DNA of 41,325 nt from a virus (Duplodnaviria > Caudoviricetes), in IMG/VR virus record IMGVR_UViG_3300035683_000204, positions 1 to 41,325 of that record; one strand, 5' to 3'. How positions within the stretch are numbered: the first letter of the stretch is position 1; every line of letters begins with the position of its first letter. The position numbers and the translations under genes are program-made. Below are positions 3,357-29,068 of the stretch, piece by piece. The notes below the pieces were generated by a model. It made no database searches. It saw only the letters and a list, made by a program, of their open reading frames with translations, and had not been told where the DNA came from.

Positions 3357-6300
3357 TTCTTCACCAGCCGGTACCCATTGGGGATCCTCACCACCGCGTC
3401 GCGCCGGCCGAGCCGCTCCAGCGCGTATCCGGTCTCCGCGAGGATCTCGCCCGACTCCGTGACGAACTGCAGGTTGACGACGTCCGGCCCTTCCTTGCGC
3501 TTCGACTGATCGAGCGCGCGCTGGGAGTACTCCTCCACGCGCACAGGCTGCGGTTCGCGGCGCTCGCGCCTGCCGAACAGCGAGCCGATGATCCCCCCCA
3601 GCACACCGATCCCGGCACCCAGGATGGGATTCGCCTGAGAGACAGCAGCCTGCGCGATGCTGGCGAAGCCCTGGATCACGGCCTGCTCCATGGTGGCGGA
3701 GCCGGAGATCGCCGCTTGTGCGATGCTACCGAACGCCTGGACCGCCACCACCCCCGCACGCTCCAGCTCGTCGGAGCCCTTGCCCACGTCGCGGCCGAAC
3801 GTCTCCCAGGTGTTGCCGCTCCCGCGGACGATGTTCTCCGCAGCCTCGCGCTCGGCGCCGCGTAGCTGCTCCGGATCGACCATCATGGCCACGAGCGCCT
3901 GATACTGGCGGCCGTAGTGCTGCTGATCTAGCGCTTCTCTGCGCTCCCTGCTGAGCCCCGTGCGATCGATGCTCAGGCCGGCTCCGGCGTCCAGGCCGGC
4001 CGCGGCGAGGAAGGGGCTCAGGTCCGCCATCTTCAGGCCGGAGAGGTTCCCGCCCAGGAGGCGCAGGTCCTGCCCCAGCTCGCGGAGATCTCCGCGGAGC
4101 CGGTAGACCTTTTCGTTCATCTCCGCCCAGCCGTCCGCTGACTTCGGGAGGCGGCGGAGCGACTCCTCGGCGAGCGCCAGCTCGGTGGTGAGCTGCCGCA
4201 CCCGCTGGCTCGTCTGCTCCTGGAGCTCGATCATCCCCGCCACCGCCGCGCGGTCCACCACCACGCGCGCAAAACCGTCGCCGACGCCGATCACCTGGGT
4301 CGGTGTCTCCCGCGCCTTCTTCCGGCCCCCGCTGTCGCCTTCCAAGTCAATCACCGGCCGCTTGGGCCCCTCGACGGAAATCGTCAGCCCGTCAATGGTG
4401 TTCCGCTTTGTGCGCTCCGCCTCGAACTCCTTCGCCAAATCCAGGACCGCACGGTACTGGATCGCCAGCGCCTCGTACTCCGATGTCAGCTGGGCATACA
4501 GCGCACGGCCCGGAGCACCTTCTCGCCACGCGCCCTGGCCATGCAGCCGCAGGATCGCCCTGCGCTTTTCCTCCAGGTCGGCGTACAGGTCGTTAGCACG
4601 CTGGGCTTCATCCTTGGCCGCGGCGACCACCACCCCCGCATCCATCTGCGGGATTGCCGCTTTCACCTTGGAGACGGCGTCCACCACCTCTTCGGCCGCC
4701 TCCCTGGCGTTGTCCTTCACATCCTCCAGGATCGCCGACATGGTGAGGAGTCCGGCCAGCAATGGCCCCCCAACCATGACGACGGTGCCCAGGGCGCCAG
4801 CGGCGCCGGCGAGTCCGGCACCTGTGCCGATCGCCGCCGTTGCGCCGGTGGCGGCCGTGGTCACTCCCCCCACACCCGCAGCCGCACGTGCAGCCACGGC
4901 AGCCGTACCGCCGAGCGCCGACGCCCCGTTGAGCAGTACGACCGCGGCCCGAAGGTCAACAACCAACCTCACGATCGAACCCACCGAGGCGATCACAGGC
5001 CCAGCGATCATCACAAGCCCAGTGAACCCAAGGAGCGCCGCCTGAAGCGGTTCAGGCAGCTCCCCGAACACCTGCACCGCATCACTTACCACCCCCACCA
5101 CTGGCCGCCCCGCTTCCAGCAGGGTGACCAGCGCCGGTGCGAGCTCCGATCCGATCTCCACTGCGAGCACGGCCGCCTCAGCTGCGGCCTGCCGGAACTT
5201 GAATCCCTCCGTCTCCCGTACCCGCGCGAACGCCTGCTCCAGGATACCTTGCGAGTTGGCCACCTCCTGAGACACCTGGGCGAACGTCTCCGCCTGGAGG
5301 CCAGCCGTACCGAGCACACCGACCAGCCCCTCCACGTTGGGGATCACGCGGGCCAGCGCGGCGGTGTTGCCGTCGAACTTGTCGATCAGATCGAGCAGCG
5401 TCTGCGTCAGCCCCTTGTCGCGCACCTCCTCGCGCAGCTTGGCCGCGGAGAGGCCCACCTTCTTCAGCACCTTCTCGGCGTCGTCCGAGGGGTTGAGCAA
5501 CGTCTGGAGATACGACCTCAGCGCGGTGACGGACACCGCGGCGTCGCCGTTGACCCTGGTGAAGCTGGCGATGAAGGCGCCGACCTCTTCGAACTCCACA
5601 CCCATCGAGGCGGCCACGGGGAGCACCGCGCCAATCGAGCCGGCGAGCTGTTCTACTTCGAAGTTCCCCGCGCGCGCGGTGGCCAGCATGATGTCGGTGG
5701 CACGGGCGGACGTCAGGTTCGCCGCCTCGTATGCCTGCATCGCCGCGGTGGTGGTGCGGGCGATGGTGGCGGTTTGGCCCAGGCCCACCGCCGACGCCAT
5801 GGAGGCGTCCTCCAGGACGTCGAGCGCCTCCGCGCCTCGCTCTCCGGCGCTGGTGACCACGAAGAGCCCCTCGGCGAGGCCGTTGGGCATCGCCGCCAGC
5901 TCGGGCCCCATCTCCAGGAGCGAGCCTCGCCAGCCGTCGACCGTCTCGGCACTGATGCCTACCAGGTTCTCGATCTTGCCGAGAGAGTCGCCGAAGTCCA
6001 CGGCCATCTTGGTGCTCGCCGCACCCACCGCGAACAGCGGGAGCGATACGCGCGTGGTGAGGTCGTTGCCGAGCCGCTCCATGCGGTCGGCCGCGTCCCC
6101 AACACGCTCGGCCATGGTCTGCACGTTCCGGCCGGTCGCCTCCGCCTCCCGCCCCACCGCTTCGACGCCCGCGCTGCCGTCGCGCGCCGCGTCGCCCAGC
6201 TGCTCCACCTCGCGCCCAGCGGCGGCCGCCGCGGTGCCGACCGCCTTCACGGGCGCGGCGTCGACCGTGACGAACAGCTCTAGCTGCTCGGACGCCGCGG

Positions 6301-6643
6301 CGGCTTCCGTACTCAGGCCCTGGAGCTCCACCCTGGCCGCCGCGGCCGCGCTCTCCACCGCCTCCAGCTCGGCCCCGGATGCACTGCCGAGCGCCTGGCT
6401 GACTCCGGCGCCGGCGGCGACCGCTGCACCGCGCAGCTCCCCCAGCTCGGCCACGAGCACCGACACCTGCTCCGTCGCCGCCACGAGCGCGGTCGGATCG
6501 AACCCGGCGAGATCAGCGGCGGGCGCACCGTCGCCCCGGAGCTCGCCCTGGGCATCCCGGAGCGCATTGAACGCTCGGATGCCCTCGGGAGCCCCGGGGG
6601 TGGTGACCCTCAGCTCGATTTCGTTGGTGACCGTGCCGGCCAT
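3353..6643 (-). CDS. Tape measure protein (TMP1, TP901-type core)
   Basis: 1096 aa, Ala-rich helical. Motifs LTTRVSLPL and LPVAASMGVEFEEVGA, hydrophobic segments; follows the tail chaperones. Confidence 0.95.
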   Translation of the reverse strand: MAGTVTNEIELRVTTPGAPEGIRAFNALRDAQGELRGDGAPAADLAGFDPTALVAATEQVSVLVAELGELRGAAVAAGAGVSQALGSASGAELEAVESAAAAARVELQGLSTEAAAASEQLELFVTVDAAPVKAVGTAAAAAGREVEQLGDAARDGSAGVEAVGREAEATGRNVQTMAERVGDAADRMERLGNDLTTRVSLPLFAVGAASTKMAVDFGDSLGKIENLVGISAETVDGWRGSLLEMGPELAAMPNGLAEGLFVVTSAGERGAEALDVLEDASMASAVGLGQTATIARTTTAAMQAYEAANLTSARATDIMLATARAGNFEVEQLAGSIGAVLPVAASMGVEFEEVGAFIASFTRVNGDAAVSVTALRSYLQTLLNPSDDAEKVLKKVGLSAAKLREEVRDKGLTQTLLDLIDKFDGNTAALARVIPNVEGLVGVLGTAGLQAETFAQVSQEVANSQGILEQAFARVRETEGFKFRQAAAEAAVLAVEIGSELAPALVTLLEAGRPVVGVVSDAVQVFGELPEPLQAALLGFTGLVMIAGPVIASVGSIVRLVVDLRAAVVLLNGASALGGTAAVAARAAAGVGGVTTAATGATAAIGTGAGLAGAAGALGTVVMVGGPLLAGLLTMSAILEDVKDNAREAAEEVVDAVSKVKAAIPQMDAGVVVAAAKDEAQRANDLYADLEEKRRAILRLHGQGAWREGAPGRALYAQLTSEYEALAIQYRAVLDLAKEFEAERTKRNTIDGLTISVEGPKRPVIDLEGDSGGRKKARETPTQVIGVGDGFARVVVDRAAVAGMIELQEQTSQRVRQLTTELALAEESLRRLPKSADGWAEMNEKVYRLRGDLRELGQDLRLLGGNLSGLKMADLSPFLAAAGLDAGAGLSIDRTGLSRERREALDQQHYGRQYQALVAMMVDPEQLRGAEREAAENIVRGSGNTWETFGRDVGKGSDELERAGVVAVQAFGSIAQAAISGSATMEQAVIQGFASIAQAAVSQANPILGAGIGVLGGIIGSLFGRRERREPQPVRVEEYSQRALDQSKRKEGPDVVNLQFVTESGEILAETGYALERLGRRDAVVRIPNGYRLVKK

Positions 6644-6646
6644 TGA

Positions 6647-6877
6647 TCAGCGCTCGGAGTGGAGGGCACGCTCGGAGTCGAGTGCCGCCTGCAAGATGGT
6701 CATCGCTTCTAAGTACGCTGGGTCCACATCATCCAGGGGCAGACCCATGTCCATCGGAGTCTTGCCCCAGGTCACGAGCATGTGGAACGCGAGCACGAGG
6801 CGACGTTCACGGGGACTCAGGCCGGCGAGGACGTTCCCGCCGTGGTAGAAGACCCGGCCGGCCCCGTCGAGTTTCCC
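6647..6877 (-). CDS. Tail assembly chaperone GT extension (-1 frame)
   Basis: Open -1 frame (GKLDGAGRVFYH...ALHSER) from slippery G GGA AAC at 6877-6871 to a stop just before TMP1. Confidence 0.8.
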   Translation of the reverse strand, partial: GKLDGAGRVFYHGGNVLAGLSPRERRLVLAFHMLVTWGKTPMDMGLPLDDVDPAYLEAMTILQAALDSERALHSER

Positions 6878-7233
6878 CGTTCCGCCTCCGACAGGCCGGA
6901 GGACAGCGCGTGGCGCACGAGCTTGGAGAAGGCGAGCGCCTTCCAATGGTGGGGGACGCGCTCCAGGTGATCGGGCTTCGCCACGTCGAAGGGCTGCCCG
7001 TCCACCGTCGCGCCCTCGACCCTGCGGATCCGGCTCTCGAACAGGCCGGGGAGGCGGGACGCGCGGTAGATCAACCGCAGCTCGTCTCCCTCCCCCTCGC
7101 GCTCCGCCGTCTCCTGGGCCCGGAAGTACTGATCGTCGGTCATCGCCTCCAGAACCAGCGTGACTCCTCCTTCCACGTCGACCCTCACCTCCCTGTTCCT
7201 GCGCGGCAGCTCCAGCATGTACGTCCTCCTCAC
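6817..7233 (-). CDS. Tail assembly chaperone G (start may be ATG 7219)
   Basis: Between tail tube and TMP; carries an X XXY YYZ heptamer near its 3' end. Confidence 0.85.
   Translation of the reverse strand: MRRTYMLELPRRNREVRVDVEGGVTLVLEAMTDDQYFRAQETAEREGEGDELRLIYRASRLPGLFESRIRRVEGATVDGQPFDVAKPDHLERVPHHWKALAFSKLVRHALSSGLSEAERGNSTGPAGSSTTAGTSSPA
6871..6877 (-). other. -1 programmed ribosomal frameshift site GGGAAAC
   Basis: In-frame CGG GGA AAC; same position as lambda G/GT-type sites. Confidence 0.8.
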
Positions 7234-7273: not shown

Positions 7274-8239
7274 TCAGTCGAAGATCAGCTTGAAGGCCGG
7301 GGCCGGGTCGGCGTGGTGCATGGCCAGCTGGATGCCGATCATGGCGTGTCCGTTCTGCCCCTCGTGCGGGATCTTGAGGATGCGAGCCGCTGGTCCCTCC
7401 ACACGGAGCCGGTTGAACTGGATGCTCCCGATCTGGTGAGCCCACGGGAACAGCTCGCCTGCCGCGTGGGCGGCCCACGGGTTCCAGGTGGCCTTCACCG
7501 GCGAGTCGATCAACACCTTGGCCTGCGGGTCGTAACCCATGATGTCGTAGCCGGCGTGTCCGCCTGGGCTCCCGCCCCTCGGCTTGGCGGGCAGCTCGGT
7601 GTTCAGCTGGAAATCGAAGCTCGCCGACGGCGCCCCGAAGCCGTCCAGGGTTACCACGTTTGTGGAGACCGGCGGCAGCACGGCGCGGCCGGGGTACACG
7701 ATCGCGGGCAGCGTGACGTCGGTGGGATCGTCCACCAGCAGCCCCATGACTTCGAAGCGCGCGATGCAGATCCGCGCCGGCACGGAGGGCAGGGACACGA
7801 GCCGGCCGCGGCAGCCCACCAGCTTGAAGAGGCTCCCGGCCGTGTACGCGAACAGGGTGGCGCTCTCGTGCGCCTCATCGATGGGCACGTACTCGATGGA
7901 CTCGTCGCCGGCGCTGGCGTCCACCGTCGCGCCGAAACCGCAGATCCGCAGGAGCACGTCCAGCTCCGGGCGCGTAGCGGCCGCGTAGGCCGCGCCCGCG
8001 CCCTTGATCGCGATCGGCAGCGTCAGCTTCGCCCAGCGTCCGCTCGGCTGCGCGCTCGCGTGCCGGCCCATGCGCGAGCCGGCCACGTCCTTCCGTTCGT
8101 TCTGCTCCAGGTGGTCGACCTCCAGCGTCGACCAGAGGTGCGACTCCAGCTGGATCCCGTCGGTGCCGGGTACCGGCACCGAGTTCGTCCCGTATACCGG
8201 CTCGATCTTGGCCAGCAGGCCGGTCAGGCGTTCGCGCAT
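7274..8239 (-). CDS. Major tail tube protein
   Basis: 321 aa; N-terminal LLAKIEPVYG and LLRICGF motifs typical of phage tube proteins; precedes the chaperone. Confidence 0.8.
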   Translation of the reverse strand: MRERLTGLLAKIEPVYGTNSVPVPGTDGIQLESHLWSTLEVDHLEQNERKDVAGSRMGRHASAQPSGRWAKLTLPIAIKGAGAAYAAATRPELDVLLRICGFGATVDASAGDESIEYVPIDEAHESATLFAYTAGSLFKLVGCRGRLVSLPSVPARICIARFEVMGLLVDDPTDVTLPAIVYPGRAVLPPVSTNVVTLDGFGAPSASFDFQLNTELPAKPRGGSPGGHAGYDIMGYDPQAKVLIDSPVKATWNPWAAHAAGELFPWAHQIGSIQFNRLRVEGPAARILKIPHEGQNGHAMIGIQLAMHHADPAPAFKLIFD

Positions 8240-10542: not shown

Positions 10543-10619
10543 CCTTGGGGACCGCGCAGAACCTGCGCGGCCCCCAAGGTAGTGCTCCGGCCGCGCCGAG
10601 GTGGCGCGGCTGTCCAGGC
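10543..10619 (-). promoter_or_regulatory. Putative late promoter copy C with overlapping hairpin
   Basis: GCCTGGACA-N4-GCGCCACCT-N17-TACCTT, followed by an inverted repeat at 10543-10579. Confidence 0.7.
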
Positions 10620-17865: not shown

Positions 17866-17912
17866 GGATCGTGTGCGTAGGGCCGTTGCGCAACGTCGCG
17901 GCGGGCATTCCG
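17866..17912. promoter_or_regulatory. GGATCGTG-N11-GTTGCGCAACGTCGCGG motif upstream of terL
   Basis: Palindrome GTTGCGCAAC; the same motif and spacing occur inside both 96-bp inverted repeats. Confidence 0.6.
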
Positions 17913-18737: not shown

Positions 18738-18967
18738 TCCGGTCCTCCCGCGCGCAGCGCCATGGCCTGGCGCACGTGATCGAGCACGACGCCGAAATCG
18801 CCCTGCGCCTGCAGGTGCTCGCGCACCCACGTGTTCAGCTCGCGATTCTCCCTGTGGAGCACGTAGCACCAGCGGAGCACACCCAGGAGCACGCCAAGGA
18901 GAACCAGGGAGACGGCGACCTGGCTCTTGAGGACCGCCTCCCACGCGTGCAATTTCTCGGGAGTCAC
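18734..18967 (-). CDS. Single-TM membrane protein (holin-like), first late gene
   Basis: VAVSLVLLGVLLGVL followed by a coiled coil; start uncertain. Confidence 0.55.
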   Translation of the reverse strand: MTPEKLHAWEAVLKSQVAVSLVLLGVLLGVLRWCYVLHRENRELNTWVREHLQAQGDFGVVLDHVRQAMALRAGGPE

Positions 18968-19045
18968 GTCGGCGTTTGTCGAGGGGACACGGGAAGCGAC
19001 ACGGGGAGAGCGGCGGACGGCGCGGCGGCGGGCGGGAACGCAGGC

Positions 19046-19119
19046 GGGGCCGTGCTGCGCTTGCAGCACGGCCCCAAGGTAATTCGGCGCCGGGGGGAAG
19101 GTGGCGCCGTTGTCCAGGC
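19046..19119 (-). promoter_or_regulatory. Putative late promoter copy A with hairpin
   Basis: GCCTGGACAACGGCGCCACCT-N17-TACCTT then a 13-bp stem; heads the late operon. Confidence 0.75.
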
Positions 19120-19134
19120 GCGCAAAGCCTCCTC

Positions 19135-19182
19135 CACCGAATACGGGGGGCCGTCCGCTGGGACGGCCCCCCGTATTCGGTG
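19135..19182. terminator. Perfect 22-bp hairpin, probable terminator insulating the late operon
   Basis: CACCGAATACGGGGGGCCGTCC gctg GGACGGCCCCCCGTATTCGGTG. Confidence 0.7.
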
Positions 19183-19209
19183 CGTGTCGGCGGGTGCAGG
19201 CGCCGCTCC

Positions 19210-19518
19210 CTATCTGCCCCCAGCAGCGCGAAGCTCCCGGCGCACGCAACCTCTGTATAGCCAGTACGACCCCTCGCCCGTCGCGGTCGCCATGCGCGTG
19301 CAGTGCTGCGCGATGCGTGCGGGCACGGAGGGGGCGGCGCGCAGCTCTTCCTTCGACCGCGCCTCCCTCCGCATGCACCCGGCCTTCATTTCGTAGCTTC
19401 CGCCCGACGCGCGGGACATCAACTCGCAAAACCGCTCACTGTCGAACTTCGGCAGATCGCCCCCCTGCGCAGCACCGGCGAGCAAGAGAAGCGGCAGGGC
19501 GAACACACGTAGCTTCAT
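19210..19518 (-). CDS. Small secreted 4-Cys protein
   Basis: Signal peptide MKLRVFALPLLLLAGAAQG; internal repeat GSY...GC.RRE twice. Confidence 0.75.
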   Translation of the reverse strand: MKLRVFALPLLLLAGAAQGGDLPKFDSERFCELMSRASGGSYEMKAGCMRREARSKEELRAAPSVPARIAQHCTRMATATGEGSYWLYRGCVRRELRAAGGR

Positions 19519-19624
19519 GGCGACCCCGTGAAGGTGGAGAGCGGCGGCACGGCGGCACAGCCCCAAGGTAAAGCGCCAGGCGGGCGGGCGGAACAGGATC
19601 GTTCCGCTGACCTGCCGAGCGCGC

Positions 19625-19972
19625 CTAGTTCGGCTTCCCCGACCCCGGCAGCGCGGGGTTCACCACTTCGTTCACGAGCCGTTGGAAGGCGAGCGCCTTC
19701 CAGTGCGGCGGCACGCGCGCCATGTGCTCCGGGCGGGACACGTCGAACGGCTCCCCGTCCACCTCAACCCCGTCCACCCCGCGGATGCGGTCCTCGAAGA
19801 ACCCGGGCAGGAGGGACGCGAAGAACTTCAGCCGCATCGTCTCCCCCTCCCCCTCGCGGTCCATCGTCTCCTGCAGCTTGAAGTATTGTTCGTCGGTGAA
19901 CGGCGCGAGCCGGAGCGTGGCGCCCCCCTCTACGGTCACGGTCAGCTCTTCCCGGTGTGGCAGCTTCAGCAT
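19625..19972 (-). CDS. Second tail assembly chaperone G (paralog; no GT extension)
   Basis: Aligns with 6817-7233 (VEGG, TD.QYF, REGEG, VDG.PFDV, RVP.HWKALAF); AGGAG RBS. Confidence 0.9.
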   Translation of the reverse strand: MLKLPHREELTVTVEGGATLRLAPFTDEQYFKLQETMDREGEGETMRLKFFASLLPGFFEDRIRGVDGVEVDGEPFDVSRPEHMARVPPHWKALAFQRLVNEVVNPALPGSGKPN

Positions 19973-20041
19973 ACGCGTTCTCCTGTCTGGTGGATGGTGT
20001 GCGGGGGCGAGGCAGCGCGCCCCCCCCGCGGCGGAACGGGC

Positions 20042-23000
20042 TTATTTCACCCTGCGGTATCCCCCGACGTTGGGGATGCGGACCTGCGCATCCTGGCGGG
20101 CCCTCCGCCCCAACGCGTACTGGATTTCCTCAATCGTCTCCCCCGACTCGGAAATGATCTGGATTTTCACCACGTCGGGCCCTTCCTTGCGCGCCGTCTT
20201 TGCGAGCGCCGCCGACTCGTAATCCGCCACCACCACCCGCTGCGGCTCCCGGTTCCGCTCCCGCTGGCCGAACAGGCTCCCGATCAGCCCGCCCAGCACG
20301 CCCACGCCCGCGCCCAAAATCGGGTTGATCTGGGTGGCGGCGGCTTGCGCAATCGACGCGAGCCCCTGGACGACCGCGGCCTCCATGCTGGCGCTGCCGC
20401 TGATGGCCGCCTGCACCATGTTCCCGAACGCCTGCACCACCAGCACCCCCGCCCGGTCGAATTCGTCCGACCCCTTCCCGATGGCGACGGCGTACTCTTC
20501 CGCGGAGCGCCCGGCCCCCCGGATGATCCCTTGCAGGGCGTCCAGGTCCGCGGCGCCCAGCTTCGCCGGGTCGATCCGCAGCCCCGCCGCCGCCTCGTAC
20601 TGGCGCTGCGCGGCCCGGCGGTCCAGGGCCTCCACCCGGGCCGCCCCCAGGCCCCGCGTGCTCACGTCCACCCCGCGGGCGGCGTCCAGCCCGGCCGGGG
20701 CCAGGAAGGGCGTCAGGTCGGTCCGGCGGAGCCCCGACAGCCCGCCGTGAATGGTCCCGAGCTGGACCACCACCTCCGCAAGGTTCCCGCGGAGCCGGTA
20801 CACCTGTTCGTTCAGCTCCTTGAAGGCGTCCCCGCCGCGGGGGAGCCGCGTCAAGGCCGCTTCCGCGGTGGCGACTTCCACCGTCACGCTCGCCAGCGTG
20901 GCGCTGGCCCGCTCCCGCAGCTCCGCCAGGGCGCGCACCCCGTCCGCGGTGCCGATCCGCGCGAAGCCTTGGTCGGGGCCGACCACCTGCAGGGGCGTTT
21001 TCTTCCGGCCGCGGGGTTCGTCGTCCCCGAAGTCGAAGGGCGGGAGGCGCGGCGGACCGGGGGCCGGAGGCCCCGTCACCACGGAGCCGTAGAGCCCCTG
21101 CAGCTCCGCGTTGCGGCGCACGGCATCCGCGTACTTGTCGCGGGCGGCATCCAGCAACGCGTCTACGCCCTCTATCTCGGACCTGATGCGCGCGACGCTG
21201 GCGCTCTGCGCCTGCGCCACGCTCCCGAAGATGTCTGCTGTCCCCGTGCTCCCCACACGCGCCACGACGCGGGCGGCGTCCGCCGCCAGCTTCGCCCGCC
21301 TGCCCTCTAGCTCCTCTATCTCCAGCTCCGCGTCGAGCTGCGCCTGCTGCACCCCCCCAAGGCTCATGTCCCGCAGCGCCACCCGGAAGTCTGCGGCGGC
21401 ACCCTGCGCCCGGCGGGCGGCGTCCTCTGCGCTGTCGCCCGCGTGCGCGAACGCAGATGCCACGGCGGTCAACCCAACCACAAGCGGCGCGCCGATCCCA
21501 ACGATCAGCAGCAGCCCGCGCGCGGCCGTCGCCACCCCGAACACGGCCGTTGACGTGGCGACGGCCGCGGACCGCACCGCTACCGTCGCATGGGCCACGG
21601 AGGCGAGCCCCGCGGCGGCGGGCCCCGCAACGGTTACGATCCCGCCCAGCACCAGCACCGTCGTCTGGACCGGCCCCGGCAGCTCGGTGAACACGCCCAC
21701 GGCGCCGCGCGCGATTTCCACCACGGGGCGGGACGCTTCCAGCACGTCCACCAGGGCGGGCGCCAGCTCCGCGCCCAGCTCCACCGCCAGCACCGCGGCT
21801 TCCGACGCGGCCTGCTTGAACTGATACCCGTCCGTCTCCTGTAGGCGCTTGAAGGCGGCGTCGAGGATGCCCGCGGAGCCCTGGATGCTGGCGGCGACCT
21901 TGGCAAACTCCTCCCCTTGCAGCCCGGCCGTCCCCAGCACGCCGACCAGCCCTTCCACGTTCGGAATCACCCGCGCAAGCGCATCCTCGTTGCCTTTGAA
22001 GCGGGCCGTCAGCTCCAGCAGGCTTTGGGACAGGCCCTTTTCGCGCACTTCCTCCCGCAGCGCCGCCGCCGACAGACCGACCTTACGGAGCACCTTTTCG
22101 GCATCGTCCGACGGGTTGAGCAGGGTTTGCAGGTACGACCGGAGCCCCGTCACGGACGCGGACGCATCCCGGTTGACGCGCGAGAAAGAGGCGATGAACG
22201 ACCCCACCTCTTCAAAGGAGACCCCCATAGACGCGGCGACCGGGAGGACTTGCCCCAGGCTCCCGGCGAGCTGCGACACCTCGAAATTTCCTTCCCGCGC
22301 CGTCGCCACCATGATTTCGGTTGCGCGGCGCGCGGACAGGTTCGACGCGGCATACGCCTGCATCGCCGCTGTCGTGGTGCCCGCGATGGTGTTCACCTCG
22401 CCCAGCCCCAGCGCGGACGCCTTTGCGGCGTCGGACAGCACGTCCAGGGCTTCCGCGCCCCGCTCGCCGCCGCTGGTGACGGTGAACAGCCCGCGCGCCA
22501 GCTCCGCGGGCAAGGCGCCCAGCTCCGGGGCCATCTCCACCACGGCGGCCCGCCATGCGTCTACCTGATCCCGCGACACCCCCACCAGGGTTTCGATGCG
22601 GGTCATGGAGCTGTCGAAGTCGGTCGCCATGTGGACCGCCGCGCCCCCCGCCGCCACCAGCGGGAGCGTGACGCGGGTGGAGAGCGTGCCGCCGATCTGT
22701 TCCAGGCGGTCCGCGGCGCGGTCGGCACGTTCCGCGAGCCCCGCCACCTTCCGGCCCGCCGTCTCCGATGCGTCCCCCGCCGCCTCCACCCCGCGGGCCG
22801 CGGTGCGGGCGCCGTCGCCCAGCGCGATGAACCGGCCCCGCGCGTCCCGCACCCGCCCGTCCAGGCCGACGACCCGCTCCCCGGCCGCACCGGCGACGCG
22901 CGAGACTTCCACCACCCCGGCGGCGCCCGTGCGCCCGGCGGGCCCCAGCGCGGACAGGTCGTCCCGGAGCCCCGCGGTGGCGGCGCCGTCCGCGGCGGCG

Positions 23001-23221
23001 GCCACCACCTGAACCGACCCCGCCAGCTCCCGCATTGCGCGGCCCGCCGCGTCCAGCTCCGCGGCATCGACCGCGAGCGGGCCGAAGTCGGCGCCCGCGG
23101 CGCCGCTGGTGGCGGCGGTCAGCTCCGTCTGTGCGGTGCGGATCGCGGTGTAGGCGGCGACCACTTCGGGGGCGCCACGCGACGTGACGACGATTTCTAT
23201 TTCGTTCGTAACCTTGGTCAC
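20042..23221 (-). CDS. Second full-length tape measure protein (TMP2)
   Basis: 1059 aa, colinear with TMP1 (VTNEIE; LRSYLQTLLNPSDDAEKVL; ALARVIPNVEGLVGVLGTAGLQ; RKEGPDVV...VRIPN). Confidence 0.95.
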   Translation of the reverse strand: MTKVTNEIEIVVTSRGAPEVVAAYTAIRTAQTELTAATSGAAGADFGPLAVDAAELDAAGRAMRELAGSVQVVAAAADGAATAGLRDDLSALGPAGRTGAAGVVEVSRVAGAAGERVVGLDGRVRDARGRFIALGDGARTAARGVEAAGDASETAGRKVAGLAERADRAADRLEQIGGTLSTRVTLPLVAAGGAAVHMATDFDSSMTRIETLVGVSRDQVDAWRAAVVEMAPELGALPAELARGLFTVTSGGERGAEALDVLSDAAKASALGLGEVNTIAGTTTAAMQAYAASNLSARRATEIMVATAREGNFEVSQLAGSLGQVLPVAASMGVSFEEVGSFIASFSRVNRDASASVTGLRSYLQTLLNPSDDAEKVLRKVGLSAAALREEVREKGLSQSLLELTARFKGNEDALARVIPNVEGLVGVLGTAGLQGEEFAKVAASIQGSAGILDAAFKRLQETDGYQFKQAASEAAVLAVELGAELAPALVDVLEASRPVVEIARGAVGVFTELPGPVQTTVLVLGGIVTVAGPAAAGLASVAHATVAVRSAAVATSTAVFGVATAARGLLLIVGIGAPLVVGLTAVASAFAHAGDSAEDAARRAQGAAADFRVALRDMSLGGVQQAQLDAELEIEELEGRRAKLAADAARVVARVGSTGTADIFGSVAQAQSASVARIRSEIEGVDALLDAARDKYADAVRRNAELQGLYGSVVTGPPAPGPPRLPPFDFGDDEPRGRKKTPLQVVGPDQGFARIGTADGVRALAELRERASATLASVTVEVATAEAALTRLPRGGDAFKELNEQVYRLRGNLAEVVVQLGTIHGGLSGLRRTDLTPFLAPAGLDAARGVDVSTRGLGAARVEALDRRAAQRQYEAAAGLRIDPAKLGAADLDALQGIIRGAGRSAEEYAVAIGKGSDEFDRAGVLVVQAFGNMVQAAISGSASMEAAVVQGLASIAQAAATQINPILGAGVGVLGGLIGSLFGQRERNREPQRVVVADYESAALAKTARKEGPDVVKIQIISESGETIEEIQYALGRRARQDAQVRIPNVGGYRRVK

Positions 23222-23300
23222 GGCGCGCCGGGGAGCGGGGGAAGTGCGGAGCCCCGCGGGCGGCGGGGAGGCGGCGCCCGCGGGGGCGCGCGACCGGTGG

Positions 23301-23344
23301 AAGGTACGCGCGCGGAAGCGGCGGCGTGGCGCGCCTGTCCAGGC
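23301..23344 (-). promoter_or_regulatory. Putative late promoter copy D upstream of TMP2
   Basis: GCCTGGACAGGCGCGCCACGC-N17-TACCTT; same spacing as the other copies. Confidence 0.7.
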
Positions 23345-23422
23345 GACGGCGGGGAGGGGCGGCGGCAGGCCGCAACCGGCTGGGGATGCCGGAGGCGAGG
23401 GCCGCAGGCGGGCCGTAGACCC

Positions 23423-23518
23423 GCCCCGCGACGTTGCGCAACGGGGTTGGGGGCACGATCCCCGCCGACCCGCGGCGGGACGACACCCCCGGAGCAGATC
23501 GGGGCTTGTGGCGCGATT
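23423..23518 (+). repeat. 96-bp inverted repeat, left copy
   Basis: 88/96 identical to the reverse complement of 27842-27937. Confidence 0.92.
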
Positions 23519-23520
23519 TC

Positions 23521-23700
23521 GGGGACCGGAATTCGCCCCCTTGAGACACTCATCGCGTGTTGGAACCCGCCCTTGAGAGGCGGCTCGCGGGTCTACGCCG
23601 CCGCCTTACTGGCCGGACAGCTCGCCGCAGGGCGTTCCCCGCCCCTCTTTGCCAACGCGAGAATATTGCGGGCCGCGTTCACGTCGCGGTCCAGCCGGAG
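23521..23700 (-). ncRNA. Putative TnpB omega/reRNA (5' boundary approximate) with candidate guide 23540-23521
   Basis: Two hairpins after the tnpB stop ending in GTGTCTCAA, resembling an IS200/IS605 right end. Confidence 0.55.
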
Positions 23701-24732
23701 CCCGCACTCCTCACACTGGTGGACGCGCACCTTGAGCGTCTTGCGCTTCGCGGGCGCGTATCCGCAGCCGGAGCACATCTGAGACGTTCCGCCAGGGTTC
23801 ACCGCCACCACCACGCGGCCGGCGCTTTCAGCCTTGCCACGCAGGATTTCGAGGAACTGGCACCACCCGGCGTCATACACGCTCTTGCGGAGCATGCCGC
23901 GGGAGAGGCCGCGGAAGTTCAGCGCTTCAACGGCAAGGAAATCGTAGCGCCGCACAAGATCGCGTGCGGTCTTGAAGTGGAAGTCACGCCGGGCGCTCCG
24001 CACGTAGCGGTGCACCCGCGCCAGCGTCCGGACCCGCGCGCGGAAGCGGGCCCCACCTAGCTTCGCCTTCCTCATCCGCCGGTTTGCACAGGCCAGCCGA
24101 GCGGCGGCGTGCTGCGCGAACCTGGGATTCTCCACCGTGTCCCCATCCGACGTGGCGAGGAACGACGCAAGCCCGAGGTCGAGCCCGGCGGCGGCACCCG
24201 TCGCGGGGAGCGGGCGCGGCTCCACCCCGTCGCAACAGAACGTGACCCACCAGTCCCCGCACCGATCCCGCTTGAGTGTGACGCTCTTCACCTTCCCTTC
24301 CACCGGACGGGAGAGGAACAGGCGGAGCGTACCAATGCCCGCCAGCGTGAGCCGCCGCCCTTCTAGGGTCCACCCGGTCTGCCGGTACGTGGTGGAGTCA
24401 TACCGGCCCTTGCCTTTGAAGCGGGGATAGCCGGGCGCCTCGCCCCGCTGGGCACGTTCGAAGAACGCCTTGAAGGCCCGGTCGAGATAGCGGAGCGCGG
24501 CGTGGGTCGCCTGGCAATCCAGGGCGCGGTACTCGGGATCGGCGCGCCGAATCTCCGTGATCTGGGCCGTCTGACCGGCGTAGGTGACAGTCACTCGGCT
24601 CTTGGCCCACGCATCCCGTCGCTCCTGAAGCGCAGCGTTGTAGAGCTGGCGCAGTAGCTCAAGCTGGCGCTCCGCGTTGCGGAGAGTCGAAGGGCTCATT
24701 CGAGCAACCTTGTACTTGAAGCTGCGGCGCAT
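23593..24732 (-). CDS. tnpB: TnpB RNA-guided endonuclease (IS200/IS605 family)
   Basis: YNAALQER, GYPRFK, RuvC GLDLG / AVEAL / DRDVNAARNI, Zn finger CSGC..CEEC. Confidence 0.96.
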   Translation of the reverse strand: MRRSFKYKVARMSPSTLRNAERQLELLRQLYNAALQERRDAWAKSRVTVTYAGQTAQITEIRRADPEYRALDCQATHAALRYLDRAFKAFFERAQRGEAPGYPRFKGKGRYDSTTYRQTGWTLEGRRLTLAGIGTLRLFLSRPVEGKVKSVTLKRDRCGDWWVTFCCDGVEPRPLPATGAAAGLDLGLASFLATSDGDTVENPRFAQHAAARLACANRRMRKAKLGGARFRARVRTLARVHRYVRSARRDFHFKTARDLVRRYDFLAVEALNFRGLSRGMLRKSVYDAGWCQFLEILRGKAESAGRVVVAVNPGGTSQMCSGCGYAPAKRKTLKVRVHQCEECGLRLDRDVNAARNILALAKRGGERPAASCPASKAAA

Positions 24733-24769
24733 CGGGTCACGGGGGCGGTTCGGGTCCGGCGGCTGGGGG

Positions 24770-24833
24770 TGTCTCCCCTGCTTGTATATATCATAATAGA
24801 CGGGCGGGGCGTTGTCAGCCCCCGCATATACAA
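24770..24833 (-). promoter_or_regulatory. Sigma70-like promoter/operator for tnpB
   Basis: CTGACA-N17-TATGAT flanked by TTGTATAT / ATATACAA half-sites. Confidence 0.75.
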
Positions 24834-24849
24834 GCCGGGGGGGGTGCCG

Positions 24850-25071
24850 CTAGTCGGAGAGGGTGCGGGCGAGCTTCTGTAGGTCGGCGGCGCGGGTCCG
24901 GGCCAGGTCAGAAAGAACCTTGCGCCAGTTGGCCGGGGGGTCTCGGCGGCTGGGGTTGTCGGGGGGTAGTTTCGCCTGTCGAATGAGCTGGAGCGACACC
25001 CCGGCGGCGTCCGCGATTTCTTGGTCTGTGGTGCACCGCTTCAGCTCTGCGGATGCGGCCTTGAAGTCCAT
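24850..25071 (-). CDS. Small HTH (Xre/Cro-like) regulator
   Basis: DQEIADAAGVSLQLIRQA; 73 aa. Confidence 0.8.
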   Translation of the reverse strand: MDFKAASAELKRCTTDQEIADAAGVSLQLIRQAKLPPDNPSRRDPPANWRKVLSDLARTRAADLQKLARTLSD

Positions 25072-25076
25072 CGGAA

Positions 25077-25140
25077 TTGTATATGCTAGGGTTGACGGCG
25101 GGGTCCCTGTCTATTATCTTATATACAGGCAGGGGAAACA
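25077..25140 (+). promoter_or_regulatory. Sigma70-like promoter/operator, mirror copy of the tnpB promoter
   Basis: TTGACG-N17-TATCTT; 49/64 identical to the reverse complement of 24770-24833. Confidence 0.75.
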
Positions 25141-25259
25141 GCAAGGCTGACCGCACACCCGCCAAGATGTCACGGCCAGCCTTGCCCCCAACGCGACCCG
25201 AAGGCCGCACCGAAAAGGTGCCCCCTGCCGCGGCTCGGGTCAAGGTCAGGAGACCGAAC

Positions 25260-25868
25260 ATGGTACGTGCCGCAGACGCCGCCACTGCCGCCGCCGCCGC
25301 CGCCGCGCTGGCCCCCGCGTTCCCCAAGGCAAGCGTCTATCACTCTCAGCTCGTCGGGCGCGGCCCGCTCTGCATCCGCCTGACGGCCGGTGTGATCCCA
25401 AGCAAGTTCAAGGACAAGCCCGCCTTTGCCCCCTTCCAGGTCCGCGGCGACACGGCGGAGTATCGCCTGACGGTCGAGAACGACACGATCCGCGAGCGGC
25501 TTGCCTCGCTCCCGCTGAACACCTGGGTGGAAGTGCAGGCCGCCGGGAGCCGGGACGCTGCCACGCTTGAAGTGCTGCGCATGGCCCCGCAGCGCACCCC
25601 CACGGCGCGCCGGATGGACGCGGGCGCGGCCGGGCCGGGCGAGTCTCCCGCGGGCGCGGCGGCCCCTGCGCCGTCCAGCCTGGAAAACGAATACTGGACC
25701 GCGCTGGAAGCCGCGGTGCGGATCGTGGGCGACTTCCAGCGGCAGTTCGGCCGGGAGCCCAGCGAGGCAGAGCGGGCCATCGCCTGCACGCTCTGGATTC
25801 AGGCCAACCGCGAGCGCGACGGGCGCCCGCTGGCGGCGCCGCGCCCGGCCCCGCGGGGGGGCCGGTGA
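25260..25868 (+). CDS. Hypothetical protein (beta-rich domain, linker, helical C-terminal domain)
   Basis: AGGAG RBS before ATG 25260; 202 aa. Confidence 0.7.
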   Translation: MVRAADAATAAAAAAALAPAFPKASVYHSQLVGRGPLCIRLTAGVIPSKFKDKPAFAPFQVRGDTAEYRLTVENDTIRERLASLPLNTWVEVQAAGSRDAATLEVLRMAPQRTPTARRMDAGAAGPGESPAGAAAPAPSSLENEYWTALEAAVRIVGDFQRQFGREPSEAERAIACTLWIQANRERDGRPLAAPRPAPRGGR

Positions 25869-26077
25869 CGCCCCGGCAGATCCACGCGGCAATGCGCCGG
25901 GCGGTTCGCGTGGTCATGAAAGCCCAAGTCACCAAAGCCGGGGGCGTAGCCCCCGGCCCGTTCCAGATCCCCGGCGAATTCTTCTCCCCGCACGCCTGGA
26001 ACGCGGCGGTTCGGGCGGAAGAGGAACGGGCGGCGGAGCGGCGGCAGCGGGAGCGGTACTTGGGCAGGGCTGGCTAA
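25865..26077 (+). CDS. Small hypothetical protein
   Basis: GTGA overlap with the upstream stop. Confidence 0.55.
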   Translation: MTPRQIHAAMRRAVRVVMKAQVTKAGGVAPGPFQIPGEFFSPHAWNAAVRAEEERAAERRQRERYLGRAG

Positions 26078-26157
26078 TTTCGTGGGACTGGCGGGCCGCG
26101 GTGGCTGAATCTATACTCCGTGAGCCTGCCGGTTCCCCGCCTTGCACTCTTCCGACA

Positions 26158-27462
26158 ATGAGCGGTCACATGGACCAATCCAACAACACCCCGTCCACGG
26201 GCGGCGGCTCTCCTGACGCCCGCGCCCTCTACGTGCGCAGCTCCGGGCCGCCGCCCGTCGCGGGGAGCTTTGACGGCTCGGCAATTCTTGAAGAGGTGGC
26301 GGAGCCGTTGGGGGTGGTGCTGTTCCAGGCGGCGCGGGACGGGCTCCTGTGGGCGACCGCCGCACCGGGGGAGCGGGCTGGGATCTTCGCACCGCGGGCG
26401 CGACTGCCCCGCCTGGACGGATACCGCGGGCTGCGGGGGGCGCTCCATCCCTTCGTGCGGATGGTGCGGAAGCCCCGCGAGACCGACCCGGCGGAGCTGC
26501 TGGAGGCTTCGGGGCAGGTGTGCGAGTGGGCGGAGCACCGGGGGCACCTGCGGACAGCGGGGGCGTTCGCGGAGATTGCCGCCCGCCTCTTCCCTTCGGA
26601 CGGGGCGCTCGCCGTGCGGGTCGGCCAGTTCGCGCGGCGCGCAGCCGACTACGGGCGGGCCGAAGCGTGGCTCGGGTGGGCCAACGTACTCGCCCGGCGC
26701 GCGGGGGACTGGCGGACCTACTGCACGTCGCTGGCTGCGCTCGGCAATCTGCACTGGCAGCGTGGCAACTACCCAAAGGCGTGGCGGCGGCAGGCGCAGT
26801 GCCTTCGCCGGGCGCGGCTGCTGGGCTTGCGCGACTTCCAGGCGTCGGCGCTGCACAACCTCTTTGCCCTGTCGGTGGAGATGGACGACTTCCAACAGGC
26901 GGAGACGTACTACAAGGCCGCTTTCGAGGTGTACGGACCGACGCACCCGCGCATGCCGTACTTTGCGCATGACGTCGCCTGGTTCTACATGCTCCGGGGC
27001 CACAACACGGCGTCCATACAGATCCTCAAGGCCCTGCTCTCCCACTTCCAGAAGCCGACCGACCAGCTTCTCGTATGGGGGGGGCTGGCGCGAACGGCGG
27101 CCGGGGCGGGACGGCGGGAGCTGTACCGGCAGGCTCGCGGCGCCGTGTGGGACATCGTGCGGGAGCATGGGAACGCGGAGCACGCGGCAACGGCGCTGCT
27201 GGACGCGGCGCGCGGAGCGGAGGCGCTTCGGGACTGGCATGACTGCCGTGTGCTGGCCGAAGCCGCGCTCGGGATTGCGCAGATCCGGGGGGAGGGGAAA
27301 GTCTCGCTCTCTGCCGAGGCGCTGGTGAGGATGGCCCGCATCGGCCTAGCGCCGGGTGCCGTGGCGGGCGGGGCGCACGCCGGGGAGGTGGTGGCGGGCG
27401 CGCAGCCGGAGACGTGGACGGGGCCGCTCCTGACCCGCGAGATCGTCAGGGCGCTGCGGTAG
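26158..27462 (+). CDS. TPR-repeat protein (RRNPP-receptor-like candidate)
   Basis: Helical repeats LAALGNLHWQRGNYPKA, ALHNLFAL..DDFQQAETYY, AHDVAWFYM; start 26158 or 26170. Confidence 0.8.
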   Translation: MSGHMDQSNNTPSTGGGSPDARALYVRSSGPPPVAGSFDGSAILEEVAEPLGVVLFQAARDGLLWATAAPGERAGIFAPRARLPRLDGYRGLRGALHPFVRMVRKPRETDPAELLEASGQVCEWAEHRGHLRTAGAFAEIAARLFPSDGALAVRVGQFARRAADYGRAEAWLGWANVLARRAGDWRTYCTSLAALGNLHWQRGNYPKAWRRQAQCLRRARLLGLRDFQASALHNLFALSVEMDDFQQAETYYKAAFEVYGPTHPRMPYFAHDVAWFYMLRGHNTASIQILKALLSHFQKPTDQLLVWGGLARTAAGAGRRELYRQARGAVWDIVREHGNAEHAATALLDAARGAEALRDWHDCRVLAEAALGIAQIRGEGKVSLSAEALVRMARIGLAPGAVAGGAHAGEVVAGAQPETWTGPLLTREIVRALR

Positions 27463-27489
27463 CTGGCGGAAAGCCGGGGGCGGGCATTC

Positions 27490-27525
27490 AGGCGGCGGGG
27501 GCGCGATGCGCCCCCGCCGCCTTTT
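27490..27525 (+). terminator. Rho-independent terminator between the convergent TPR and peptide genes
   Basis: AGGCGGCGGGGGCGC gat GCGCCCCCGCCGCCT TTT. Confidence 0.8.
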
Positions 27526-27529
27526 CGTC

Positions 27530-27733
27530 CTACGCCTTCGTGGAATCCGGTGCCGCGGCTCCGTTCGACGTGGTGCTGTCGGGTTCGTTCTTGTGCCCGG
27601 AGCCGAACAGGCCGCTGTTCTCATTGCGCCGGTCGCCAGGTGCGGCGGTGTCCGGCGCGGTGGAGTCGGAACAGGCCGCCGCCACGGCGGCGCAGATCAG
27701 CAGGGCGACGGCGACGGTGCGAGTTGCTTTCAT
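27530..27733 (-). CDS. Small lipoprotein / secreted pro-peptide
   Basis: 67 aa; AGGAG RBS; signal peptide with lipobox AAAC; embedded SGLFGSGH. Confidence 0.8.
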   Translation of the reverse strand: MKATRTVAVALLICAAVAAACSDSTAPDTAAPGDRRNENSGLFGSGHKNEPDSTTSNGAAAPDSTKA

Positions 27734-27841
27734 GGTAGCGGGCTCCTGAGATGGGGAGGGTGGATAGCGGGACCGGGCGGCCCCGCGTCTCCAAGATAGC
27801 CGGTGGGGCCGCCCGCGGCCCCCCGCGCGCCGCCCCCTCAG

Positions 27842-27937
27842 AATCGCCCCACAAGCCCCGATCTACTCCGGGGGTGTCGTCCTGCCGCGGGTCGGCGGGG
27901 ATCGCGCCGCCTACCCGGTTGCACAACGTCGCGGGGC
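27842..27937 (-). repeat. 96-bp inverted repeat, right copy
   Basis: Partner of 23423-23518. Confidence 0.92.
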
Positions 27938-27953
27938 CATTCCGTCTCCGGAG

Positions 27954-28888: not shown

Positions 28889-28984
28889 CGCGGTTGCAGG
28901 GTGCAGAGGAGAGCACCCAGCCGGGTAGCAGCTGGTGGACATCGCGTCGTATGTCGGGGGGAGACTTCAGGCCGGAATGCAGAC

Positions 28985-29058
28985 GGGGCCGTGCTGCGTC
29001 AGCAGCACGGCCCCAAGGTATTGTCTCGGCGCGCCTGAGGTGGCGCCGTTGTCCAGGC
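28985..29058 (-). promoter_or_regulatory. Putative late promoter copy B with hairpin
   Basis: Identical to copy A except for the hairpin loop and the 17-nt spacer. Confidence 0.75.
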
Positions 29059-29068
29059 GCTTCGCCTC

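What the first reader, a model, noticed from the sequence alone, without database searches (positions are those of the whole stretch)
19625..23221. Second complete tape measure protein with a G-only chaperone in reversed order
Seen: TMP2 (1059 aa) is colinear with TMP1 (1096 aa), with conserved N-terminus, core and C-terminus but more divergent hydrophobic and distal segments. Its chaperone lies downstream, has no canonical slippery heptamer and no GT-like -1 frame. Established: tails need one TMP plus G and GT, and TMPs set tail length and act in DNA entry. Inference: TMP2 must borrow the phage GT and tube. It would yield either a second tail type (altered entry, or escape from TMP-targeting defences such as Tab or superinfection exclusion) or a dominant-negative decoy that poisons tails.
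Basis: partly seen in the sequence, partly recalled or inferred. Interest (0 to 1): 0.88.

Follow-up and report, generated by a model that had tools for sequence, protein, structure and literature searches.

The report
Spare tape-measure cassette in Mu-like phage
A Mu-like phage of soil bacteria carries a second, intact but diverged tail-length ruler gene plus a chaperone copy that has lost its frameshift, behind the same promoter-like motif as its head and tail genes, so it likely builds two kinds of tail, which would hedge against defences that target this protein.

Summary
Observation confirmed. TMP2 (20042-23221, 1059 aa) is 49% identical and colinear with TMP1. Downstream G2 is 55% identical to G1; its slippery site GGGAAAC is changed to GCCGAAC with a stop in the next codon, and no T frame remains. 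New here: TMP2 sits behind one of four exact copies of a promoter-like motif that also precedes the head and tail operons (0 of 100 shuffles reach four). G2 is sister to this phage's own G1. The pair lies in a ~9 kb insert absent from the closest relative. Nine related elements, four covering this region, have one TMP in normal order. A truncated second prophage is unlikely. Best reading (0.45): a late-expressed alternative tape measure that borrows GT, tube and tip and yields a second tail type, like the TMP+chaperone of Vibrio PLE satellites but inside a self-sufficient phage. Rivals: idle capture 0.2, sponge 0.15, tail poison 0.15. It is a singleton with no expression data. The scan held no look-alike; its one twin-TMP note (staphylococcal jumbo phages) is a different arrangement.

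The parts
20042..23221 (-). TMP2, second TP901-family tape measure gene, 1059 aa, GTG start, no Shine-Dalgarno
   Evidence: TIGR01760 E 2.9e-26; 49% to TMP1; hydrophobic segments at 520-543, 557-592, 965-983 as in TMP1; SD duplex -1.7 kcal/mol, TMP1 -2.2
19625..19972 (-). G2, G-only tail assembly chaperone copy, 115 aa, with Shine-Dalgarno
   Evidence: 55% to G1; sister to G1 at 95/89; model's top four structural matches are 3fgx, 5ir0, 3klu, 2ob9, Z 5.0-3.5; SD -7.4
19625..19634 (-). Altered slippery site: G CCG AAC TAG in place of G1's G GGA AAC TCG
   Evidence: colinear DNA alignment with G1 and the G001 gene
19973..20041 (-). TMP2-G2 spacer, homologous to this phage's tube-G1 spacer
23301..23341 (-). 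Promoter-like motif TGGACA-N6-CCAC-N19-TACCTT upstream of TMP2 (lacks the GGGG tail that the other three copies have)
19076..19116 (-). Same motif upstream of the holin-like gene (label inferred), terminase and head operon; part of a 91-nt duplicate of 28970-29060
10576..10616 (-). Same motif upstream of the connector and tail operon
   Evidence: equivalent site in G001
29015..29055 (-). Same motif upstream of 28352-28942 and 27954-28355
   Evidence: equivalent site in G001
3353..6643 (-). TMP1, canonical tape measure gene, 1096 aa
   Evidence: normal tube-G-T-TMP-tip order as in relatives
6647..7218 (-). G1 (6817-7218) and T frame (6647-6874) with GGGAAAC at 6871-6877
   Evidence: T homologs in relatives
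7274..8239 (-). Tail tube gene (label by position; no library hit)
   Evidence: conserved upstream of G in relatives; no hit
19135..19182 (-). Long perfect hairpin between the insert and the head-operon motif
   Evidence: fold of 19120-19200, z = -8.09
19030..27950 (.). ~9 kb insert that holds the cassette plus a small secreted-type ORF, TnpB, HTH, two unknown ORFs, a TPR gene and a small peptide (ends approximate)
   Evidence: flanking genes are contiguous in G001

Best explanation
TMP2 and G2 form an intact accessory two-gene cassette behind the phage's shared promoter-like motif, and it is likely expressed with the virion genes so that a fraction of tails would be built on TMP2 instead of TMP1. 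Steps: (1) shown: intact genes, same motif as the head and tail operons, G2 with a ribosome site and a dead slippery site, no T, tube or tip gene in the cassette. (2) Inferred from Mu biology: the motif is an activator-dependent late promoter. (3) Inferred from lambda and TP901-1: G2 coats and solubilises TMP2, while GT from the main operon links it to the tube protein; dropping the frameshift lets the cassette add G without adding GT. (4) Inferred: TMP2 seeds on the shared tail tip and gives tails about 37 residues (roughly 5-6 nm, recalled rule 0.15 nm per residue) shorter, with a different membrane-proximal region and C-terminus. (5) Inferred: the gain is a hedge against TMP-specific barriers such as Tab/Rta-type assembly blockers, SNIPE-type or exclusion proteins, or a second inner-membrane entry route.
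For: Motif: 4 exact copies, shuffles mean 0.01, 0 of 100 reach 4. Two equivalent sites in G001 share CCAC-N19-TACNTT but not the upstream CCTGGACA found in 4 of 4 window copies, so the TMP2 copy matches this phage. G2 is sister to G1, brought the tube-G spacer with it and stops exactly one codon after the altered slip site. dN/dS TMP2-TMP1 is 0.43 overall, 0.25 in the core and 0.31 at the C-terminus. TMP2-specific codon changes are 125 non-synonymous to 101 synonymous, against 6975:2649 for random single changes. Overall rate equals TMP1's against distant outgroups (97 v 100; 90 v 107). Hydrophobic segments are kept. Feasibility: a TMP-only swap between Mu-like siphophages gave infectious, Tab-resistant DMS3 (PMC10884400 section 7); PLEs put their own TMP into ICP1 tails (PMC11838301 section 7); TMP sequence governs SNIPE sensitivity and ManYZ use (PMC13190303 passages).
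Against: Singleton: 0 of 9 related elements has a second TMP, and only 4 of them cover the region, so there is no conservation evidence for the cassette. The selection signal may date from a donor phage: TMP2 falls outside TMP1+G001 (100/99), though a TMP1+TMP2 clade is not rejected (p-AU 0.067). The C-terminal part is more altered than in canonical TMPs: 25 of 33 outgroup-invariant columns kept, against 30 and 30; unique changes 18 v 8 and 16 v 5; TMP2's non-synonymous share exceeds TMP1's (37:62) and G001's (70:68). TMP2 has no Shine-Dalgarno, its start codon can pair in a hairpin, and its motif lacks the GGGG tail. PLEs also swap the baseplate hub; this cassette has none. The core span is about 42 kb, against 32-38 kb in 4 relatives, so the element may be too long to package whole.
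Confidence: 0.45

Rival explanations
1. Idle capture: TMP2 was taken fairly recently from a related phage into an accessory-gene hotspot and has not yet decayed; it does nothing useful here, and the prophage may be oversized.
For: Singleton; TMP2 branches outside TMP1+G001; the insert also holds host-type HTH and TPR genes and a TnpB; G060 has a TPR gene in the same interval; about 4 kb longer than the longest of 4 relatives.
Against: It needs several coincidences: reversed order, a G copy from this phage's own lineage, a slip site changed with a stop in the very next codon, and a motif of this phage's own type 80 nt upstream, with no T or tip remnant.
Confidence: 0.2
2. Sponge: TMP2, kept soluble by G2, is made late but stays out of virions and soaks up a TMP-binding inhibitor (Tab/Rta type), so that TMP1 tails can assemble.
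For: Late-type motif; core and C-terminus are the best-conserved parts (67%, 65%), and Tab sensitivity maps to the TMP C-terminus; the C-terminal part is mildly relaxed.
Against: A decoy should track TMP1 closely rather than sit at 52%; a full 1059-aa protein with its hydrophobic segments is more than a sponge needs; weak translation signals suit a low-copy structural protein better than a titrator; for sensors that kill on seeing TMP or TAC (Avs17/18, PMC13581612 passages) an extra copy would hurt.
Confidence: 0.15
3. Tail poison: the cassette is switched on in the lysogen, by a superinfecting relative's late activator or by read-through from the TnpB promoter, and TMP2/G2 jam the invader's tail assembly by mixing with its TMP or skewing its G:GT ratio.
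For: The G:GT ratio is critical in lambda and TP901-1 (PMC5009743 and PMC4493119 passages); G2 makes G only; prophage tail-assembly blockers exist in Mu-like phages; TnpB lies upstream on the same strand.
Against: The same motif would fire in the phage's own lytic cycle and poison itself; Tab has a constitutive promoter and an antidote gene, and I found no antidote candidate and no PADLOC match for TMP2 or G2; G001's motif differs in its upstream half, so cross-activation is doubtful; TMP2 is not truncated.
Confidence: 0.15
4. The insert is a small satellite nested in the phage, with a PLE-like TMP+TAC pair for its own tails.
For: TMP+TAC pairing as in PLE; an HTH gene with a divergent neighbour and a 96-nt inverted repeat pair.
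Against: No integrase, primase or capsid-remodelling hit among the insert ORFs scanned; the HTH region is a common host-chromosome module; TMP2's motif is the phage's own; TMP2 lies outside the inverted repeats.
Confidence: 0.05

Closest known systems
Vibrio cholerae PLE satellite tmp-tac(-bhuB) cluster (PMC11838301; abstract, section 7 and passages read)
   Same: An extra TMP with its own tail assembly chaperone, outside a full tail operon, that relies on another operon's tube. G2's model matches PLE1 TAC (5IR0) at rank 2, Z 4.6.
   Different: PLE is a satellite exploiting a helper, replaces the helper's TMP wholly, also supplies a baseplate hub, and its proteins are about 20% identical to the helper's. 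Here both TMPs are in one self-sufficient phage genome, about 50% identical, with no extra hub.
Tab / anti-Tab of Mu-like phage JBD26, and PLE11 Rta (PMC10884400 section 7 and passages; PMC11838301)
   Same: Accessory genes near the terminase genes of a Mu-like phage that bear on TMP-dependent tail assembly; a TMP swap escapes Tab.
   Different: Tab is a dedicated blocker with a constitutive promoter and an antidote; this is a full TMP with a chaperone behind a late-type motif.
Lambda-type G/GT-TMP module (PMC5009743, PMC4493119; passages read)
   Same: G1/T/TMP1 is a textbook example with GGGAAAC; G2 and TMP2 are homologs.
   Different: Order reversed, slippery site lost, no T, not next to tube or tip genes.
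Twin TMP-like genes of staphylococcal jumbo phages such as MarsHill (10.1101/2020.12.14.422802; one passage read)
   Same: Two TMP-like genes in one phage genome.
   Different: There one is annotated as a tail lysin with peptidoglycan-degrading domains; here the second copy is a plain TMP in a separate cassette with its own chaperone.
Phage morons (PMC3594210, seen in search listing only)
   Same: Inserted unit with its own promoter-like site between conserved phage genes.
   Different: Morons are usually lysogen-expressed foreign genes (recalled); this one carries the phage's late-type motif and duplicates core virion genes.

Membership tests
TP901-family tape measure protein | TIGR01760 / PF10145 domain above cut-off | tested here: met
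   TIGR01760 92.3 bits v cut-off 28.8; PF10145 88.5 v 33.2
TP901-family tape measure protein | Full length with central hydrophobic segments and family C-terminus | tested here: met
   colinear with TMP1; segments kept; 25 of 33 C-terminal outgroup-invariant columns kept
TP901-family tape measure protein | Encoded between G/GT and the distal tail gene | tested here: not met
   preceded by a promoter-like motif and TnpB, followed by G2; no T or tip gene
TP901-family tape measure protein | Present in the tail and sets its length | not testable with these tools
   needs virions
Tail assembly chaperone G/GT pair | TAC fold | tested here: inconclusive
   model pLDDT 86; top four of 48,161 chains are 3fgx, 5ir0, 3klu, 2ob9, but Z is only 5.0-3.5, rmsd 3.9-5.9 over 78-87 residues; 2ob9 is titled TAC and 5ir0 is PLE1 TAC; that 3fgx and 3klu are TACs is recalled; Foldseek gave nothing at E<=0.001
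Tail assembly chaperone G/GT pair | Homology to a G gene in canonical position with a slippery site | tested here: met
   55% to G1, E 1e-45; G1 has GGGAAAC and a T frame
Tail assembly chaperone G/GT pair | -1 slippery heptamer and T frame in G2 | tested here: not met
PLE-type satellite tail cluster | Own TMP plus TAC outside a complete tail operon | tested here: met
PLE-type satellite tail cluster | Own baseplate hub gene | tested here: not met
   no large unassigned ORF in the insert and no tube or Dit-like remnant; the hub itself was not used as a query
PLE-type satellite tail cluster | Separate mobile element with integrase and replication genes | tested here: not met
   no such hit among insert ORFs scanned; lies inside a transposable phage
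Tab/anti-Tab defence | Dedicated blocker with constitutive promoter and adjacent antidote | tested here: inconclusive
   no PADLOC hit (2023 library); motif is shared with virion operons; an antidote cannot be excluded from sequence
Mu-type activator-dependent late promoter | Conserved upstream site plus -10 box without a sigma-70 -35, repeated before late operons | tested here: met
   4 copies before head, tail and two other units; no sigma-70 consensus promoter in 18900-23700; Mu comparison from PMC12867686 passages
Mu-type activator-dependent late promoter | Bound and activated by a phage Mor/C-family protein | not testable with these tools
   activator not identified; conserved genes beyond the window's right end are candidates

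The most novel reading that the evidence does not exclude
One self-sufficient phage genome makes two virion types that differ only in the tape measure protein, using a compact late cassette (TMP2 plus a frameshift-dead chaperone). This is bet-hedging at the assembly and inner-membrane entry step, a counterpart to Mu's tail-fibre switch, and a counter-defence against TMP-targeting immunity.
Probability: 0.38. Interest if true: 0.86.

Novelty: new variant of a known kind. Interest (0 to 1): 0.66.

Why it matters
Long-tailed phages are taken to use one tape measure protein, and that protein is now known as a target of several defences (Tab, Rta, SNIPE, Avs18) and as a determinant of inner-membrane entry. 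A phage that keeps a second, diverged copy wired into its late programme would show a new way to evade them. It is also a natural test of two open questions: whether a G-only chaperone can work with another operon's GT, and how a tail tip chooses between two TMPs. The limits are one metagenomic example and a host family inferred from relatives.

Tried and rejected
Complex prediction of the tail-tip protein (1-745) with TMP2's C-terminal 145 residues: no answer, score 0.09 against a mark of 0.32; not used as evidence. Sequencing runs: no RNA holder listed; one DNA holder, possibly the source. Search for a second cassette: G2 found only itself among 6 candidates and nothing in viral contigs; the G profile gave 46 proteins without context. 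TMP profiles gave 4 viral, 5 metagenome and 4 genome loci (the metagenome scan covered 26 of 64 parts) and 7 viral loci. G was found in 6 of 71 family genomes and 2 of 401 phylum genomes, the latter with only 10 candidates scored each. Where context could be read it was canonical; L018-L020 and L024 were too short or too distant to show it. These word-based searches are insensitive (one search missed the G001 TMP). GenBank phages: 160 records matched TMP2, 160 places in all, none with two. TnpB guide: 14-mers from 23515-23590 hit only the inverted-repeat copy and one further 1-mismatch site in the window; 16-mers over 305,722 bases of relatives gave one site seen in two overlapping loci; no target accepted. 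Rfam gave two chance miRNA hits. No consensus promoter or terminator in 18900-23700. Foldseek on G2 gave nothing. The core-only tree left TMP2 unresolved. The relative-rate test with G001 as outgroup (228 v 82) was set aside because G001 groups with TMP1. An alignment of 15 G proteins was too diverse to scan with. Literature: 'two tape measure'+phage (5 papers, 3 checked by passage, none a second TMP gene), 'second tape measure' (0); no description of this arrangement was seen, but subscription journals and supplements were not searched. Rejected: assembly chimera, truncated second prophage, nested satellite.
Full report
Setting. The window is a whole 41,325-base virus record of a transposable, Mu-like phage: transposase 33072-34718(+), transposition protein B 36807-37967(+), and terminase, portal, head-morphogenesis and protease-capsid genes on the minus strand. 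Tube, distal-tail and hub labels are by position and conservation in relatives; no library names them. The closest relative lies in a Longimicrobiaceae MAG (L022), so the host family is inferred. The one run that holds the DNA is labelled biocrust metagenome and may be its source; its contig matches 1-33000 in one piece without differences.

Observation. TMP2 (20042-23221, 1059 aa) aligns end to end with TMP1 (3353-6643, 1096 aa) at 49%. Both pass TIGR01760 and PF10145. Among 7,990 scored candidates TMP1 was the only full-length relative, though that search missed the G001 protein found later. Identity is 67% in the core and 65% at the C-terminus, but 30% at residues 531-720 and 38% at 1-165. 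Hydrophobic segments are kept; the 33-residue Gly/Ala linker missing from TMP2 is also missing from 4 more distant TMPs. G2 (19625-19972) follows TMP2 and is 55% identical to G1. G1 and 3 of 3 relatives tested have GGGAAAC in frame; G2 has no heptamer, and no T, distal-tail or tube remnant scores above shuffles in 18.9-28 kb. The other 14 rows of the G alignment end in a GNS motif at the slip site. At DNA level G2 is colinear with G1 through that site: G GGA AAC TCG has become G CCG AAC TAG.

(a) A motif TGGACA-N6-CCAC-N19-TACCTT occurs exactly four times, all on the minus strand: before the tail operon, before the head operon, before gene 28352-28942, and 80 nt before TMP2; 0 of 100 shuffles reach four. 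G001 has CCAC-N19-TACNTT-GGGG at two equivalent places but a different upstream half; the relaxed scan found no convincing copy in the other relatives. The TMP2 copy is therefore of this phage's own type, though it lacks the GGGG tail. Mu's four late promoters have a -10 box, no -35 and an activator site (PMC12867686 passages); that these motifs are such promoters is inference. (b) In G001 the homologs of 28352-28942, 27954-28355, the holin-like gene and TerS are contiguous, so about 19030-27950 is an insert, with a duplicate of the motif at its left end behind a long perfect hairpin (z -8.09). Its right half carries TnpB and HTH and TPR genes of host type. (c) G2 is sister to G1 (95/89 among 26 rows) and carries the tube-G spacer. 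TMP2 is sister to TMP1+G001 (100/99 for that pair among 8 rows; a TMP1+TMP2 clade is not rejected, p-AU 0.067). The two genes may have joined the cassette separately. (d) Translation signals mirror the main operon: G2 and G1 have Shine-Dalgarno sites (-7.4, -12.2 kcal/mol), TMP2 and TMP1 do not (-1.7, -2.2); the leader of 28352-28942 also lacks one (the holin-like start was set 4 nt off there).

Selection. Pairwise dN/dS is 0.43 for TMP2-TMP1 against 0.35 for TMP1-G001, and 0.54 for G2-G1 against 0.49 for G1-G001; dS is near saturation at GC3 of about 0.9, so these are rough. TMP2-specific codon changes are 125 non-synonymous to 101 synonymous, below the random ratio of 6975:2649 but above TMP1 (37:62) and G001 (70:68). 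Against distant outgroups TMP2 and TMP1 change equally overall (97 v 100, 90 v 107), but TMP2 changes more in its last 160 residues (18 v 8, 16 v 5) and keeps 25 of 33 outgroup-invariant columns against 30 and 30. This shows purifying selection, but not that it acted in the present place.

Distribution. Nine distinct related elements were read: G001/G006, G002/G055, G007, G060, G049, G011, G473, G474/G475 and G476/G477 (paired records counted once). Each has one TMP in a normal tail operon; in G007 it is split over two ORFs. Four of the nine cover the interval where the insert lies. None has a second TMP or a G after a TMP. Among GenBank phages, 160 records match TMP2 at 160 places. The cassette is a singleton so far. 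The core span is about 42 kb (41.3 kb plus about 0.8 kb of conserved genes beyond the window) against 32.2, 32.2, 36.7 and 38.0 kb; whether that fits the head is untested.

Mechanism. In lambda, G binds the TMP, the T domain of GT binds the tube protein, and the ratio is crucial (PMC5009743 passages); in TP901-1 loss of G or T gives no tails, and aggregates proposed to be TMP appear without G (PMC4493119 passages). A second TMP made with the virion genes needs more G but can share GT, and that is the anatomy seen. A TMP-only swap between Mu-like siphophages gave infectious, small-plaque DMS3 that escaped Tab, with sensitivity mapping to the C-terminus (PMC10884400 section 7). PLE satellites insert their own TMP, with their own TAC and hub, into ICP1 tails (PMC11838301 section 7), and G2's model ranks PLE1 TAC second among 48,161 chains at a low Z of 4.6. 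TMP sequence also tracks SNIPE sensitivity and ManYZ use (PMC13190303 passages). I commit to a late-expressed alternative TMP that yields a second tail type (0.45). Idle capture (0.2) cannot be excluded in a singleton that may be oversized. A sponge (0.15) fits the timing but not the divergence or the weak translation. A tail poison (0.15) would hit the phage itself. A nested satellite (0.05) lacks mobility genes.

Known kinds and novelty. It works like the PLE TMP+TAC substitution but is not a member: no separate element and no hub. TMP2 is a TP901-family TMP by sequence but fails the operon-position feature; G2 is a G homolog that fails the frameshift feature. Twin TMP-like genes are reported in staphylococcal jumbo phages, one being a tail lysin (10.1101/2020.12.14.422802 passage; lead from e1-1958296). 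Eight literature searches showed no second TMP with a G-only chaperone under a late promoter in a self-sufficient phage; subscription journals and supplements were not seen. PMC13581612, PMC3556154, PMC3447690 and PMC8407745 were read as passages only. Verdict: real, unusual, a new variant of a known kind; interest 0.66, held down by a single example and no expression data.

Noticed in passing
window 17882-17894; copies inside 23423-23518 and 27842-27937; L012 ~2974, L013 ~12308, L051 ~3624: The palindrome CGTTGCGCAACG sits between TerS and TerL in the window and in 3 relatives. Two further copies lie in a 96-nt, 92% inverted repeat that brackets TnpB to the small peptide gene: a possible protein-binding or recombination site, and a possibly invertible 4.3 kb segment.
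   Followed up: partly
window 23593-24732(-): TnpB with its catalytic acidic residues apparently intact (read from the sequence) and no TnpA nearby; an end hairpin and two CTCAAGGG repeats follow it; no guide target was found.
   Followed up: partly
window 24781-24833 and 25075-25140: Two inverted, similar AT-rich promoter-like blocks with TGTATA...TATACA ends flank the 73-aa HTH gene 24850-25071; the HTH region recurs in many Longimicrobiaceae genomes, in some next to TPR genes.
   Followed up: partly
window 26170-27462(+) and 27530-27733(-): TPR protein facing a small signal-peptide ORF; TPR homologs lie beside G006's prophage and in the same accessory interval of G060.
   Followed up: partly
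window 19210-19518(-): Small cysteine-containing protein with a signal-peptide-like start and its own TACCTT box at about 19565-19570; Atlas neighbours are unnamed or lipoprotein-like. A superinfection-exclusion role is a guess.
   Followed up: partly
window 10687-10739 / 10853-10905: 53-nt inverted repeat at 89% inside the small gene after the capsid gene.
   Followed up: no
L023 8732-12825 (G007): The single TMP of this relative is split into two overlapping ORFs of 960 and 405 aa, and its hub gene sits upstream of the tube: an assembly error, a pseudogene or a programmed shift.
   Followed up: no
G060 C121 ~75400-78700 and G011 C203 ~2100-4700: These relatives' TMPs match the family at both ends but hardly in the PF10145 core, which suggests swapping of TMP middle parts in this group.
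   Followed up: no
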